A DNA stretch of 64,000 nt from Acidimicrobiia bacterium (GTDB lineage Bacteria > Actinomycetota > Acidimicrobiia > IMCC26256 > JAENVU01), in assembly GCA_031422675.1 (NCBI GenBank), contig JANPMG010000009.1, positions 6,750 to 70,749 on the forward strand, in the 5' to 3' direction. Numbering within the stretch: the first letter of the stretch is position 1; each line of letters opens with the position of its first letter. A model generated the notes under the pieces. That model made no database searches. It saw only the letters and a list, made by a program, of their open reading frames with translations, and was not told where the DNA came from. A program made the position numbers and the translations under genes. This document shows positions 44,889 through 48,144 of the stretch, piece after piece.

Positions 44889-45941
44889 TCAGGGCAACGC
44901 GGCGGCGAGATCGCAGAGCGGCATGACGTTCCCCGCGTCGCCGATCATGTCGGCGTTGTAGCCGTTCTTGAAGAACGCGAACGACGTGCCCGTTTCCGGG
45001 TCGGCCCACGCCACCTGGAGGTATGCGCCGCCGTGCCCGAACGATCCGGGTGAGCATTCCTTGCCGAACATCGCGTACCGGAACTGATGCAACCCGTCGT
45101 CACCCGCGAGCACCAGCCCGAGCGAACGATTCACCGGGACGCCCATGAGCGGATCGTCGAACGTGGCGCGCACGCGCGTGCGAGCGTTATCGAGGACGTC
45201 GGCGTTCCAAAGGCCGTTCGGATCGCGTAGCAACGCTTGATAGAACTGCGCCATCGTGGCCGCGGTCATGATCCCGCCCCCGCCCGGTACCCCGGCGGCG
45301 CGCTGCGCCGGATCGTTCGCCACATCGAGCAGATCGATCGACTCGTCGAGTGGCCGCGCGCCGATCCGAACGCCGTCCACCACGTCACCCTGCTCGTCTG
45401 CCGGGATTCCGAGCAGGCGCGGCAGTCCGAGCGGCGCGGTGAGGCGTTGCTCGATCGCATCCCGGAAATCGAGACCGGTGGTGCGCTCGATGATGTCGAT
45501 CAGTACCCAGTGCGCCGACGTTGCGTGGTACTCGAAGCGTGAACCGGGCTCCCACTCCAACTCCCACCGCCCGAACGCGGCGCGCCGACGCTCGGGATCG
45601 GCGCCGTCCACCGGACCGACGAGCGCATTCGGGAATCCCGACGTGTGGAGCATGACCTGTTCGACGGTGATGGCGTTCTTGCCGCTCGTCCCGAACTCAG
45701 GGACGAACTCGGCGACGCGCTGCTCCGGCCGTACGAGCCCGTCACCGATCAGCAACCACACCATCGACGCGACGATCGGCTTGGTCGCCGAGAACGCGCA
45801 GAAGCGGGACTCGTTCGTTGCGGTGCCGAAGGTCTCGAATGCCACCAGCTCGCCATCCCGTGCCACCGCGAGCTGGCAGGCCGGCGTGAGCTTGTCCTCC
45901 ACCAAACGCTGCGCGCGTCCGAGCAGCTCGTCCAGGCTCAT
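44889..45941 (-). CDS. serine hydrolase, beta-lactamase family
   Basis: FSATK (SxxK), LHTSG, FEYH, FGHGG. Confidence 0.88.
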   Translation of the reverse strand: MSLDELLGRAQRLVEDKLTPACQLAVARDGELVAFETFGTATNESRFCAFSATKPIVASMVWLLIGDGLVRPEQRVAEFVPEFGTSGKNAITVEQVMLHTSGFPNALVGPVDGADPERRRAAFGRWELEWEPGSRFEYHATSAHWVLIDIIERTTGLDFRDAIEQRLTAPLGLPRLLGIPADEQGDVVDGVRIGARPLDESIDLLDVANDPAQRAAGVPGGGGIMTAATMAQFYQALLRDPNGLWNADVLDNARTRVRATFDDPLMGVPVNRSLGLVLAGDDGLHQFRYAMFGKECSPGSFGHGGAYLQVAWADPETGTSFAFFKNGYNADMIGDAGNVMPLCDLAAALP

Positions 45942-46034
45942 GGAACGGAGCGTCGCGTACCGCTCCTCGCACCGTCAACCGCGGCCCGCCGGTATAGATG
46001 CACCGCGGCCGCCGGCGCGGGTACCGTCGGGCAC

Positions 46035-46514
46035 ATGACTCACATGTACGACCTCACGATGAAGTCGACCACCGGTGACGACGTCGACCTGTCCCAGTAC
46101 CGCGGCCGCGTCGTCCTCTTCGTCAACGTCGCCAGTTTCTGAGGGCTGACGCCCCAGTACGCAGGTCTGCGTACGTTGCATGAAGCACACGAAGCATCAG
46201 GTTTCAGTGTTCTCGCCTTCCCGTGCAATCAGTTCGGGGAGCAAGAACCCGGAACCGACGCGGAAATCCTCGAGTTCGCCACGTCCAAATACGACGTGAC
46301 CTTCCCGATCTTCAGCAAGATCGAGGTCAACGGCGACGGCGCCTGCGAGCTGTACCAGTGGTTGCGCTCTGCACAACCCGGAGACACCGACTCCGATGCC
46401 ATCACGTGGAACTTCGAGAAGTTCCTCGTGGACCGGGACGGCAACGTCGTTGCACGATTCGGTCCCGCGGTCACGCCCGAGGAGATCGAACCGCACGTCG
46501 CCGCGTTGCTGTAG
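46035..46514 (+). CDS. gpx: selenocysteine-containing glutathione peroxidase
   Basis: VNVASF-[TGA 46140-46142]-GLTPQY, then FPCNQF, QEPG, WNFEKFL in one frame; SECIS-like hairpin downstream. Confidence 0.9.
46157..46174 (+). promoter_or_regulatory. bacterial SECIS-like hairpin
   Basis: GTACGCAG-GT-CTGCGTAC perfect stem, 14 nt after the UGA. Confidence 0.8.
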
Positions 46515-46541
46515 CGCGCCACCGGCTTCGGTCGGCGCGCG

Positions 46542-47918
46542 CTACTTCCAGCGGCGGCGGGTTCCGGCCAGCTCCTGCGCGTAGCCGGCGACCGAGGCCA
46601 CCGAGCAGAGGGCCTGGTAGAGCAGCAGGAAGGCGACGTAGCCGATCCGGTTCTTCCGCACGCGCAAGTCGAGCGGGGCGAAGACCTTGCGCCGCTGGTG
46701 CAAGCGCAGTCCCCCATAGACGAACGCCGTGAGCGGCAGCACCAGCAACGTCCACACGCCCACGATGATCGGGACACCGATCGCGCACAGCACGAGCCCG
46801 GGCAGGAACACGCCGACGTAGGCGAGGTCGAGCAGCGGGATCAACAGGTCGATCCCGGCGATGAGCTTGGTGAAACCACCGGGCTGGCGCCAGGGTGGCA
46901 CCGTCCGCAGTCCCTCGAACATGCCGCGGGCCCAGCGCGCGCGCTGGCGCATGAAGTGCCGCACACTCGTCGGCACATCGGTGAACGCGATCGCCGTCGG
47001 CTCGAAATACACGCGGCCGCCGTCGGCGAGGAGCCGCCACGTCACCACGATGTCCTCACCGATCGCATCCGGCCAGCCGCCCACCTTGCGAATCTCCTCG
47101 GTCCGATAGAGCGAGAACGCACCCTGGGCAACGAGCGTGCTCTGGTACAGACCCTGGACCCGCTTCACGACCGTGATCCCGAGGTAGTAGTCCCATTCCT
47201 GCATGCGCGTCAGCAGGTTGTCGCGCGAGTTGCGCACCAACACCGAACCGGCCACGGCCACCGTGTCGGGCGGTGCGGATTCCAACCGCGACACGAGCCG
47301 GCGCACTGCTTCTCGGTGGAGCAGCGTGTCGGCGTCCACGGTGATCACGTAGGCCGTCGAGATGTTGGCGAGCGCCGCGTTCAACGCATGGGCCTTGCCG
47401 GGCTCGGACTCGTGGACGACCTCGAGGTGAATGCCCAGCTCCGCCGCAACCTGTTCGGCGACCATGCACGTACCGTCGGTGGAACCGTTATCGGCGAGCA
47501 CGATCGTGATCGGTCCGGCGTAGTCACTCGCCGCGGCGCGACGAATCGTGTCGGCGATACCCGCCTCCTCGTTCCGGGCGGCGATCACGATCGAGACACC
47601 GGTGGTGGGGCTGTAAACCGTGAGCGGTGGCTGGCGATCGAGAACTGCCGAGATCGCGAGGAACGCCACCAGGAATCCGGGGATGAACGCCAGCAGTCCG
47701 ATGACAACCCACGCGAACGTCACACCGACATCGGCAGCGAGCTCGTCGTGCCACGGGACGGAGAGATACACCGAGACACCGAGCCACATGCCGGCCACCA
47801 CCAGGGCCAGCACCAGCTTCGCCGCCACCGGGATGTACAACCGCCGACGGCGCACAGGCTCGGGCGCGAGGTCCGGTCGCGCGGCCGGAGGCCCGAGTGC
47901 CACTTTCGGTGTGAACAT
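46542..47918 (-). CDS. processive GT2 glycosyltransferase (PgaC/IcaA-like)
   Basis: ARNEE, DNGSTD, GKA.ALN, DADT, GED, QRARW; start uncertain (could be up to 48089). Confidence 0.88.
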   Translation of the reverse strand: MFTPKVALGPPAARPDLAPEPVRRRRLYIPVAAKLVLALVVAGMWLGVSVYLSVPWHDELAADVGVTFAWVVIGLLAFIPGFLVAFLAISAVLDRQPPLTVYSPTTGVSIVIAARNEEAGIADTIRRAAASDYAGPITIVLADNGSTDGTCMVAEQVAAELGIHLEVVHESEPGKAHALNAALANISTAYVITVDADTLLHREAVRRLVSRLESAPPDTVAVAGSVLVRNSRDNLLTRMQEWDYYLGITVVKRVQGLYQSTLVAQGAFSLYRTEEIRKVGGWPDAIGEDIVVTWRLLADGGRVYFEPTAIAFTDVPTSVRHFMRQRARWARGMFEGLRTVPPWRQPGGFTKLIAGIDLLIPLLDLAYVGVFLPGLVLCAIGVPIIVGVWTLLVLPLTAFVYGGLRLHQRRKVFAPLDLRVRKNRIGYVAFLLLYQALCSVASVAGYAQELAGTRRRWK

Positions 47919-48144
47919 GACCGCGGTCGATTCCCGAACCGTTTCGCCGGTTTCGGGCGCGCGGGCGCGCACGGGTTCCGATTCGGTGTCGACCGCGCCG
48001 GTGTCGATATTCCCCGGCTCCAGATGGGACAAACCATGCGGCTGGATCGGCAGAACCAGTCGGCGCCTGAACGACGCGATCATCGCCACGAAGTACGGTG
48101 CAATCCGTCTATATCGCCGAGACCAGGAGCAAGGGGCATACTCA

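What the first reader, a model, noticed from the sequence alone, without database searches (positions are those of the whole stretch)
46035..46514. Selenocysteine glutathione peroxidase with an fdhF-like SECIS
Seen: the ORF track splits this gene, but TGA falls exactly at the peroxidatic Cys of NVASxCGxT. It is followed by a small GGGC-TGAC-GCCC hairpin and a perfect stem whose apex is GCAGGUCUGC. Known: this apex matches the SelB-binding loop of E. coli fdhF as I recall it, here 3 nt further from the UGA. Sec-GPx is uncommon in bacteria, and known actinobacterial selenoproteins are mostly formate dehydrogenases. Inference: this genome recodes UGA and may hide other selenoproteins.
Basis: partly seen in the sequence, partly recalled or inferred. 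Interest (0 to 1): 0.8.

Follow-up and report, generated by a model that had tools for sequence, protein, structure and literature searches.

The report
Selenocysteine glutathione peroxidase gene with SECIS
This is one intact gene for a peroxide-destroying enzyme whose catalytic residue is selenocysteine, written as a UGA "stop" codon and recoded by a small RNA hairpin just downstream; the type is already known in bacteria, so the call is right but ordinary.

Summary
Window 46035-46514 (+) is a 159-codon glutathione-peroxidase-family gene (Pfam PF00255, E 2e-41). It has one in-frame TGA, at 46140-46142, at the peroxidatic position (NVASF-U-GLT).

A perfect 7-bp hairpin with a GGUC loop starts 14 nt after the TGA (46157-46174).

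The genome carries selA, selB, selD and tRNA-Sec(UCA).

Across 190 related loci, 118 have TGA at this site and 72 have TGC or TGT. The decamer is present in 115 of the 118 TGA forms and in none of the 72 Cys forms. In the 60 TGA orthologs analysed codon by codon, the six hairpin codons are frozen.

The TGA forms make up one clade, mainly Acidimicrobiales, with a nested gammaproteobacterial group and one Cys revertant whose hairpin has decayed. All 118 lack the resolving Cys that 70 of the 72 Cys forms keep.

The small first hairpin is not conserved. At least six other thiol-oxidoreductase genes in this genome also carry an in-frame TGA, while no formate dehydrogenase candidate does.

Bacterial Sec-GPx has been predicted since 2004-2005, and this scan has already reported the same kind in at least 19 other genomes. 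This is a new member of a known kind.

The parts
46035..46514 (+). Sec-GPx coding sequence: 159 codons plus a TAG stop. The start ATG at 46035 is shared with the two same-genus orthologs; an ATG at 46044 is an alternative start.
   Evidence: Translation with TGA=U. Pfam PF00255 E 2.2e-41 over the full profile. Alignment with G017 and G013.
46140..46142 (+). UGA codon for selenocysteine (residue 36) at the peroxidatic position of NVASF-U-GLT.
   Evidence: The same column is TGA in 118 and TGC/TGT in 72 of 190 related loci.
46157..46174 (+). SECIS hairpin: 7-bp stem GUACGCA/UGCGUAC with loop GGUC (46164-46167). It is encoded by codons 41-46 (CAG TAC GCA GGT CTG CGT) plus the first two bases of codon 47.
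   Evidence: Fold -8.5 kcal/mol, z -3.55. It is the RNAalifold consensus of 60 orthologs. All 7 pairs are kept in 114 of 118 TGA forms and 6 in the other 4, against at most 5 of 7 in 72 Cys forms. The codons are frozen in 58-60 of 60 orthologs.
46143..46156 (+). 14-nt spacer between the UGA and the SECIS hairpin. In this genome, together with the UGA, it can form a small hairpin (46140-46156) that is not conserved.
   Evidence: Fold -6.9 kcal/mol. Not in the RNAalifold consensus. Pair counts are no better than shuffles: 83% of cells paired, and the one pair with a change on both sides is matched by shuffling.
45942..46034 (.). 93-nt divergent intergenic region upstream of the gene. The promoter was not identified.
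   Evidence: ORF list. No sigma-70-like or terminator-like site in 45800-46700.
44889..45941 (-). Divergent neighbour: a serine hydrolase of the beta-lactamase family. It is not part of the system.
   Evidence: Pfam PF00144 E 5e-51.
46542..48089 (-). Convergent neighbour: a family-2 glycosyltransferase. It is not part of the system.
   Evidence: Pfam PF13641 and PF00535.

Best explanation
The gene encodes a monomer-type (GPx4/plant/yeast-like) glutathione-peroxidase-family thiol peroxidase whose peroxidatic residue is selenocysteine.

Recoding. During translation the UGA at 46140 is decoded by Sec-tRNA(Sec). That tRNA is delivered by the genome's SelB, which is tethered by its C-terminal winged-helix domain to the 7-bp/GGUC hairpin that begins 14 nt downstream. 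The hairpin lies inside the coding sequence and fixes six codons and two residues (Ala43, Arg46).

Chemistry. The selenolate reduces a hydroperoxide and becomes a selenenic acid. The enzyme lacks the resolving Cys of the thioredoxin-dependent 2-Cys bacterial GPx homologues, one of which the same genome also has. Recycling must therefore go through an external thiol, not an internal selenenyl-sulfide.

Shown: the gene, the UGA/Cys alternation, the conserved hairpin, the Sec machinery and the loss of the resolving Cys.

Inferred: actual Sec insertion, SelB binding to this hairpin, the peroxide substrate and the reductant. For the reductant I favour a low-molecular-weight thiol such as mycothiol, or direct attack by thioredoxin or mycoredoxin; glutathione itself is unlikely.
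For: (1) Family and site. PF00255 covers the full profile at E 2.2e-41. The best solved relatives are GPx, GPx5, HYR1 and GPx4 chains at E 1e-44 to 1e-37, aligned across the site.

(2) UGA/Cys alternation. Of 190 related loci, 118 have TGA and 72 have TGC/TGT in the same column.

(3) Signal.
- The 18-mer hairpin is kept with 7 of 7 pairs in 114 and 6 of 7 in 4 of the 118 TGA forms. The 72 Cys forms have 0-5 of 7.
- Codons 41-46 are CAG TAC GCA GGT CTG CGT in 58-60 of 60 orthologs. Other columns with an invariant residue vary freely; for example R141 uses 6 codons and CGT in only 6 of 60.
- The only common change in the stem is U-A to U-G (30 against 25 distinct rows).
- The hairpin meets all four constraints of the published bSECIS model quoted: loop 4 nt, stem 7 bp, GG at the loop start, 21 nt from UGA to loop, and -8.5 kcal/mol.

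(4) Natural control. The one Cys form nested in the TGA clade (L095) has lost the hairpin, and Ala43/Arg46 have become Glu/Gln.

(5) Machinery. selA, selB (with SelB-wing_3), selD and tRNA-SeC(tca) are present.

(6) TGA is otherwise a normal stop. It ends 1088 of 1519 long high-GC3 ORFs.

(7) The TGA is not an assembly error. Two runs hold contigs identical over the stretch (they may be the source sample), and contigs of other organisms match best over 46140-46183.

(8) Resolving Cys. Residue 82 is Ala/Val/Ile in 118 of 118 TGA forms and Cys in 70 of 72 Cys forms. The genome's own Cys paralogue (C144) has it.

(9) Reductant. No glutathione synthetase match was found in a 97.7% complete genome. 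An MshC-like hit scores 424.6 bits, below the cut-off of 485.1.
Against: There is no direct evidence of selenium incorporation or of expression; no RNA run holds the stretch.

The hairpin is nearly invariant, so no compensatory double changes prove pairing. In one search no measure exceeds the shuffles. The case rests on frozen synonymous sites and on the contrast with the Cys forms.

Rfam has no match in 45500-47000 apart from a chance miRNA hit, on the opposite strand upstream of the gene, at E 1.8. Pfam SelB-wing_2 is not detected in the genome.

The fold of the 61-nt stretch is not unusual (z -1.1).

The reductant is unknown. The MshC hit is below its cut-off, the neighbours give no partner, and thioredoxin is not excluded.

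The 190 loci are not independent samples: the genome and metagenome sets may overlap, and many are close kin.
Confidence: 0.92

Rival explanations
1. The TGA is a true stop. The locus is a GPx paralogue broken by a nonsense mutation, or two separate short genes: a 35-codon peptide and a 112-aa product from the TTG at 46176.
For: Standard ORF calling gives exactly this split. Public protein collections hold many 109-124-aa C-terminal fragments of this family. The genome has an intact Cys paralogue that could make this copy dispensable.
Against: TGA sits at the same catalytic codon in 118 loci from several families and two phyla, and both halves are under protein-level conservation. A nonsense allele would not persist like that, nor be accompanied by six frozen codons forming a hairpin. 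A product starting at the TTG would lack the catalytic residue and the first strand of the fold.
Confidence: 0.02
2. UGA is read through, but not as selenocysteine. The hairpin would stimulate near-cognate read-through (Trp, Cys or Arg), or the lineage would use a variant genetic code.
For: No experiment shows which residue is inserted. RNA structures downstream of stop codons can promote read-through in general (recalled, not from a call).
Against: TGA is the commonest stop of long ORFs in this genome (1088 of 1519), so there is no code change. The site is the redox-active Cys, where only Sec is a known functional replacement. The complete Sec pathway is present. The apex is identical to a hairpin from a gene known to insert Sec, E. 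coli fdhF. selA was found in all 19 same-genus genomes searched, G000 included.
Confidence: 0.03
3. It is a genuine Sec enzyme but works like the ordinary bacterial GPx homologues: a thioredoxin-dependent peroxidase that uses another Cys (C64, or C104 in this protein) as the resolving residue.
For: C64 (in FPCNQF) is invariant in the 60 TGA forms. C104 is present in this protein and in 28 of the 60. Most characterised non-animal GPx homologues are thioredoxin-dependent (recalled).
Against: The canonical resolving Cys is absent in 118 of 118 TGA forms. C104 is Ala in 27 of the 60 and C27 is absent here, so neither is a clade feature. C64 is equally conserved in the Cys forms that do have the resolving Cys (29 of 32).
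Confidence: 0.25

Closest known systems
Bacterial GPX-like selenoproteins (PF00255, UxxT motif): Treponema denticola Gpx, 5 Sargasso Sea sequences, 40 GOS sequences
   Same: Same Pfam family and same U-x-x-T redox motif (U-G-L-T here). The UGA sits at the peroxidatic Cys position, and an in-frame bacterial SECIS lies directly downstream. Sources, passages only: PMC1794560, PMC1088965, PMC2398784, and the review PMC13188914, which lists the family as 'predicted with high confidence'.
   Different: The host is a freshwater-sediment Acidimicrobiales (Ilumatobacteraceae-like) actinobacterium. My two literature searches found no paper naming Sec-GPx in Acidimicrobiia. The one preprint on Sec use in that class (Actinomarina, 10.64898/2026.04.03.716425) does not contain the word peroxidase. 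I could not compare sequences with the published examples, because figures and supplements are not held.
E. coli fdhF (formate dehydrogenase H) SECIS
   Same: The apex decamer GCAGGUCUGC is identical: 3 bp plus the GGUC loop, in the same reading frame (GCA GGU CUG).
   Different: - The apex lies 3 nt further from the UGA (18 against 15 nt to the decamer).
- The stem is a perfect 7 bp with no unpaired U on the 5' side; the fdhF minihelix folds with one.
- fdhF forms one long hairpin of about 40 nt starting next to the UGA. Here no lower helix is conserved.
- The host protein is unrelated.
Thioredoxin-dependent 2-Cys GPx homologues (poplar GPx5 2p5q, yeast HYR1/Gpx3 3cmi, and this genome's own paralogue on contig C144)
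   Same: Same fold and length, monomer-type sequence, 53% identity to the genome's own Cys paralogue.
   Different: These use Cys at the peroxidatic site and keep the resolving Cys (F-C block). The window protein has Sec, and Ala at the resolving position, like all 118 TGA forms.
Animal selenocysteine GPx4
   Same: A Sec peroxidatic residue, no resolving Cys, and monomer-type length. GPx4 chains match at E 1e-38 to 1e-35.
   Different: The eukaryotic SECIS lies in the 3' UTR and has a different structure (PMC13188914 passage). GPx4 uses glutathione, and I found no glutathione synthetase in this genome. The Sargasso paper's own trees suggest that at least some bacterial and eukaryotic Sec forms arose independently.

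Membership tests
Glutathione peroxidase family (Pfam PF00255) | Whole-domain match above the gathering score | tested here: met
   140.2 bits against a cut-off of 27, profile positions 1-108 of 108
Glutathione peroxidase family (Pfam PF00255) | Conserved active-site blocks NVAS-x-[C/U]-G-x-T, FPCNQF-x-x-QEP and WNF-x-KF (their role as the catalytic tetrad is recalled, not taken from a call) | tested here: met
   All three blocks are present in the translation. N31, Q66/Q70, W125, N126 and F127 are invariant in 60 Sec and in 29-32 of 32 Cys forms.
Bacterial GPX-like selenoprotein family (UxxT) | In-frame UGA aligned with the catalytic Cys of homologues (Sec/Cys pair) | tested here: met
   118 TGA against 72 TGC/TGT in one column of 190 loci
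Bacterial GPX-like selenoprotein family (UxxT) | UxxT redox motif | tested here: met
   U-G-L-T. T39 is invariant in all 60.
Bacterial GPX-like selenoprotein family (UxxT) | Sec-decoding trait in the genome (selA, selB, selC, selD) | tested here: met
Bacterial GPX-like selenoprotein family (UxxT) | Selenium actually incorporated at the UGA | not testable with these tools
   Needs 75Se labelling or mass spectrometry. No RNA run is listed.
Bacterial SECIS consensus model (constraints quoted from PMC13188914, Fig. 2 legend) | Apical loop of 3-9 nt and upper stem of 4-16 bp | tested here: met
   Loop GGUC (4 nt), stem 7 bp
Bacterial SECIS consensus model (constraints quoted from PMC13188914, Fig. 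2 legend) | G in the first two loop positions, usually followed by G or U | tested here: met
   The loop starts GG then U. The 3 variant orthologs have the loop CGGGUU.
Bacterial SECIS consensus model (constraints quoted from PMC13188914, Fig. 2 legend) | 16-37 nt between the UGA and the apical loop | tested here: met
   21 nt (46143-46163),
Bacterial SECIS consensus model (constraints quoted from PMC13188914, Fig. 2 legend) | Minimum free energy of -7.5 kcal/mol or lower | tested here: met
   -8.5 kcal/mol for the 18-nt hairpin alone
E. coli fdhF-type SECIS | Apex sequence: GGUC loop closed by A-U, C-G and G-C | tested here: met
   Decamer identical to MG1655 fdhF
E. coli fdhF-type SECIS | Unpaired U in the 5' strand of the upper stem (said to be needed for E. 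coli SelB binding; recalled) | tested here: not met
   The stem here is a perfect 7 bp. The fdhF minihelix folds with an unpaired U.
E. coli fdhF-type SECIS | One continuous hairpin of about 40 nt starting next to the UGA | tested here: not met
   fdhF folds that way. Here only the 7-bp hairpin appears in the consensus of 60 orthologs.
Thioredoxin-dependent atypical 2-Cys GPx homologues | Resolving Cys in the F-C block about 46 residues after the peroxidatic residue | tested here: not met
   Ala82 here. Cys at this position in 0 of 118 TGA forms and 70 of 72 Cys forms.

The most novel reading that the evidence does not exclude
The Acidimicrobiales Sec-GPx clade may be more than a Sec copy of the usual bacterial enzyme. 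It could be a mechanistically separate 1-Sec peroxidase that gave up the internal resolving Cys (0 of 118) and is recycled by a low-molecular-weight thiol of these actinobacteria, such as mycothiol or gamma-glutamylcysteine. In 10 of 60 loci a GCS2/YbdK-like ligase ORF lies directly downstream.

Because its SECIS apex is identical to the fdhF apex, the gene plus its signal would behave as a self-contained cassette that works with distant SelB proteins. That would explain its nested transfer into Gammaproteobacteria.

Together with six further thiol-oxidoreductase selenoproteins, it may be what maintains the Sec trait in a lineage where neither FdhA nor SelD was found as a selenoprotein.
Probability: 0.25. 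Interest if true: 0.5.

Novelty: new member of a known kind. Interest (0 to 1): 0.3.

Why it matters
Gene callers cut this gene in two, so peroxide defence and selenium dependence are under-counted in Acidimicrobiales. These are abundant sediment, soil and marine actinobacteria.

The clade also offers a clean natural data set for how a coding-region SECIS constrains a protein:
- six frozen codons and two fixed residues;
- one revertant in which the signal has decayed.

In addition, it shows a consistent link between Sec use and loss of the resolving Cys. That link is testable biochemically.

None of this changes the known picture of bacterial selenoproteins. This scan has already reported the same kind of gene in at least 19 other genomes.

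Tried and rejected
- Rfam scan of 45500-47000 at E up to 10. The only hit was a chance miRNA match on the opposite strand, upstream of the gene; no SECIS family matched.
- Pfam SelB-wing_2 in the genome: no match. SelB was then found with TIGR00475 and carries SelB-wing_3.
- Covariation test of both hairpins on 60 orthologs. No measure exceeds the shuffles and there are no compensatory pairs in hairpin 2; hairpin 1 was dropped.
- My own genome-wide scan for TGA followed by a stem and a GGT[CT] loop. It gave 21 candidates. The 9 longest (read-through frames of at least 120 codons) were translated and all look like Arg/Ser/Pro-rich off-frame translations. The GC3 filter even missed the GPx gene itself. 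This led nowhere.
- Plasmid collection search with the protein: only ordinary Cys GPx genes below 60% identity.
- SelW-like family (PF10262) in the genome: none.
- No RNA holder is listed for the stretch, so expression is untested. Laying DNA contigs confirms the sequence, but the two identical holders may be the source sample.
- Neighbourhood clustering of the 60 Sec loci. No neighbour is shared by more than 10 loci, and none of the recurrent ones is in this genome.
- Public protein records are shown with C where a record may bear U, so I could not tell which full-length database entries are annotated selenoproteins. One of them (P0002) equals the TGA read-through of L066 at 156 of 156 residues.
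- NCBIfam has no model that claims this protein. The best is NF007900 at 174 bits against a cut-off of 270.
- Structure prediction and complex prediction were not run, because the family assignment did not need them.

Full report
**What is there.** Window 46035-46514 (+) is a single reading frame of 159 codons plus a TAG stop, interrupted by one TGA at 46140-46142. The ORF list splits it into a frame that ends at that TGA and a 112-aa TTG ORF at 46176-46514. Read through, the product matches the Pfam glutathione peroxidase domain from end to end (PF00255, E 2.2e-41, 140 bits against a cut-off of 27). It also aligns with solved GPx, GPx5, HYR1 and GPx4 chains at E 1e-44 to 1e-35. The TGA falls at the peroxidatic position of NVASF-U-GLT. 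The window lies on contig C9 of a 3.87-Mb, 217-contig assembly rated 97.7% complete. Named relatives place it in the Acidimicrobiales, near Ilumatobacteraceae.

**The RNA signal.** The 14 nt after the TGA can, together with the UGA, form a small hairpin (46140-46156, -6.9 kcal/mol). Directly behind it lies a perfect 7-bp hairpin with loop GGUC (46157-46174, -8.5 kcal/mol, z -3.55).
The decamer GCAGGTCTGC occurs once in the fdhF region, starting 15 nt after the fdhF TGA, against 18 nt here, in the same codon phase. The statement '3 nt further' is correct.
- The likeness stops at the apex. The fdhF minihelix folds with an unpaired U and is the tip of a roughly 40-nt hairpin that starts next to the UGA. 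The element here is a short perfect stem, and no lower helix is conserved.
- The hairpin meets all four constraints of the published bacterial SECIS model, as quoted from the review PMC13188914: loop 3-9 nt, stem 4-16 bp, G in the first two loop positions, 16-37 nt spacing, MFE -7.5 kcal/mol or lower. Here these are 4 nt, 7 bp, GG, 21 nt and -8.5 kcal/mol.
- Rfam gave no SECIS match.

**Is it more than chance?** In this one sequence the evidence is modest. The 61-nt fold has z -1.1. The decamer alone occurs 7 times in the genome, against about 17 expected from composition, and only this copy follows a TGA. The combined pattern has 0 matches in 100 shuffles of the window. The decisive evidence is comparative.

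I collected 190 related loci: 30 from 61 related genomes including this one, 80 from species-representative genomes and 80 from metagenomes. The sets may overlap and many loci are close kin. My first scripts read only the + strand and so missed 18 Cys-type loci of the relatives' set; re-did the counts on both strands for all 190.
- 118 loci have TGA and 72 have TGC or TGT in the catalytic column.
- The decamer sits at +18 in 115 of the 118 TGA forms and in none of the 72 Cys forms.
- The 7-bp stem is fully paired in 114 TGA forms and has 6 pairs in the other 4. The same register in the Cys forms gives 0-5 pairs.
- Among the 60 TGA orthologs analysed codon by codon, codons 41-46 are CAG TAC GCA GGT CTG CGT in 58-60 of 60. 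Other columns with an invariant residue use several codons; for example R141 uses six, and CGT in only 6 of 60.
- The hairpin also fixes residues. Ala43 and Arg46 are invariant in the TGA forms, whereas the Cys forms have mostly Glu/Thr/Lys and Glu/Gln there.

There is no compensatory covariation, because the stem hardly varies. The only frequent change is U-A to U-G, and no measure in the pair count exceeds shuffled controls. The first small hairpin is not part of the RNAalifold consensus and is no better than shuffles. I regard it as a by-product of the Gly-Leu-Thr-Pro codons in this lineage.

**Phylogeny.** A maximum-likelihood tree of 92 proteins (60 Sec, 32 Cys; the 18 minus-strand Cys loci were not included) puts all 60 Sec forms on one side of a branch with 100/98 support, together with a single Cys form, L095.
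- Six gammaproteobacterial rows, including L095, form a group nested among the Acidimicrobiales rows. With midpoint rooting only, this suggests transfer from the actinobacterial clade.
- L095 is a natural control. Its codon is TGC, its hairpin has decayed, and Ala43/Arg46 have become Glu/Gln.
- Within the genus of the window, selA was found in all 19 genomes searched, G000 included. The Sec-GPx was found in only 3 of those 19 (G000, G013, G017). A 52-54%-identical Cys GPx was found in most of the others. The Sec-GPx is thus an accessory gene on top of a genus-wide Sec trait.

**Machinery.** The genome has the following.
- selA and selB are adjacent on contig C78, at 467 and 292 bits, both over their cut-offs.
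- SelB is 589 aa with GTP_EFTU, Beta-barrel_SelB and a C-terminal SelB-wing_3 domain.
- selD is on C207 (395 bits).
- A tRNA-SeC with anticodon tca is on C183 (67 bits in Rfam; confirmed by ARAGORN).

TGA is otherwise the commonest stop of long ORFs (1088 of 1519), so the code is not reassigned.

**How it probably works.** Established knowledge of bacterial Sec insertion is summarised in PMC13188914. It implies that SelB carrying Sec-tRNA binds the hairpin while the ribosome approaches the UGA, and delivers Sec in competition with release factor 2. This step is inferred here, not shown.

The chemistry is that of GPx-family peroxidases. One clear difference from the usual bacterial homologues concerns the resolving Cys, in the F-C block about 46 residues after the catalytic residue. 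It is Ala, Val or Ile in all 118 TGA forms and Cys in 70 of the 72 Cys forms; the exceptions are L045 and the revertant L095. The genome's own Cys paralogue on C144 has it. The other cysteines do not substitute as a clade feature. C104 is present in 28 of 60 and C27 in 34 of 60, and C64 is conserved in both types.

The selenenic acid must therefore be reduced by an external thiol. No glutathione synthetase match was found. An MshC-like gene scores 424.6 bits, just under the cut-off of 485.1. I therefore favour mycothiol with mycoredoxin, or direct reduction by thioredoxin, but this is open.

The neighbours give no partner. They are a divergent beta-lactamase-family hydrolase and a convergent family-2 glycosyltransferase, and the scan found no promoter-like or terminator-like site.

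**Other selenoproteins.** A search of the genome with the AhpC/TSA model found six further matches with exactly one in-frame TGA. In each the TGA falls on the redox Cys.
- Two peroxiredoxins have T-P-G-U-T.
- Two TlpA-like proteins have W/H-U-x-V-C.
- One protein has W-U-G-C; its apex is CUGCC[GGUCU]GGCAG.
- One protein has G-U-I-P-C.

An earlier report of this scan described one TlpA-like case in this genome. None of 8 molybdopterin-domain matches has an internal stop, and neither does selD. Here the Sec trait seems to serve thiol peroxidases and oxidoreductases, not formate dehydrogenase. This is 'not found', not 'absent', in a fragmented assembly.

**Comparison with what is known.** Bacterial Sec-containing GPx-like proteins (UxxT) are an established predicted family.
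- One is listed in Treponema denticola (PMC1794560, tables).
- Five are listed in the Sargasso Sea data (PMC1088965).
- Forty are listed in the GOS data (PMC2398784).
- A 2026 review lists the family under 'predicted with high confidence' (PMC13188914).

I saw only passages of these papers, not figures or supplements. Two searches found no paper that names Sec-GPx in Acidimicrobiia. The Actinomarina preprint reports Sec machinery in that class but does not contain the word peroxidase. Public protein collections already hold full-length entries named 'glutathione peroxidase' from Ilumatobacteraceae and gammaproteobacterial MAGs. One unnamed entry (P0002) equals a TGA read-through at 156 of 156 residues. 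This scan has reported the same kind of gene in at least 19 other genomes, and those reports reached the same verdict.

**Verdict.** This is a genuine selenoprotein gene that gene callers truncate. It is a new member of a known kind, and interest is low to moderate. The points worth keeping are:
- the clade-wide loss of the resolving Cys;
- the frozen fdhF-identical apex;
- the nested gammaproteobacterial group with a revertant;
- the thiol-oxidoreductase-rich selenoproteome, in which no Sec-FdhA or Sec-SelD was found.

Noticed in passing
G000 contigs C173:12494-12958(+), C153:2079-2546(+), C2:26022-26348(-), C52:1748-2065(+), C112:18901-19236(-), C180:15281-15580(-): Six further AhpC/TSA-type matches each carry one in-frame TGA at the redox Cys. 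The motifs are TPGUT (twice), WUTVC, HUPVC, WUGC and GUIPC. They are probable additional selenoproteins, and their downstream hairpins differ from one another.
   Followed up: partly
G000, whole genome: None of 8 molybdopterin-domain matches has an internal stop, and neither does selD. A 2006 survey (PMC1794560 passage) stated that FdhA or SelD was a selenoprotein in every selenoproteome then known. This genome may be an exception, but the assembly is fragmented.
   Followed up: partly
L095 (gammaproteobacterial MAG), codon at locus position 1594: This is a Cys (TGC) form nested inside the Sec clade. The SECIS hairpin has decayed, Ala43/Arg46 are replaced, and the resolving Cys is still absent. 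It is an apparent Sec-to-Cys reversion.
   Followed up: partly
L096, L099, L197, about 14-32 nt after the TGA: A variant SECIS in a gammaproteobacterial subgroup keeps the same 6-bp stem GUACGC/GCGUAC but has the loop CGGGUU in place of A[GGUC]U.
   Followed up: no
For example L076:1975-3183(+), and 9 other Sec loci: In 10 of 60 Sec-GPx loci, an ORF resembling the GCS2/YbdK carboxylate-amine (glutamate-cysteine-type) ligases lies directly downstream on the same strand. I named it from the look of the sequence and ran no family search. All ten are closely related Ilumatobacteraceae loci, and the ORF is not in this window. It may hint at the thiol partner.
   Followed up: no
window 46140-46183: In three sediment metagenome runs, contig depth peaks over the TGA plus SECIS. 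Short contigs of other organisms match the window at 90% or more only there, so this is the most conserved DNA of the gene across community members.
   Followed up: no
G000:C98:53968-55134(+): A CysRS-like gene scores 424.6 bits on the MshC (mycothiol ligase) model, below its cut-off of 485.1, beside a second hit at 301 bits. Whether the lineage makes mycothiol is open.
   Followed up: no
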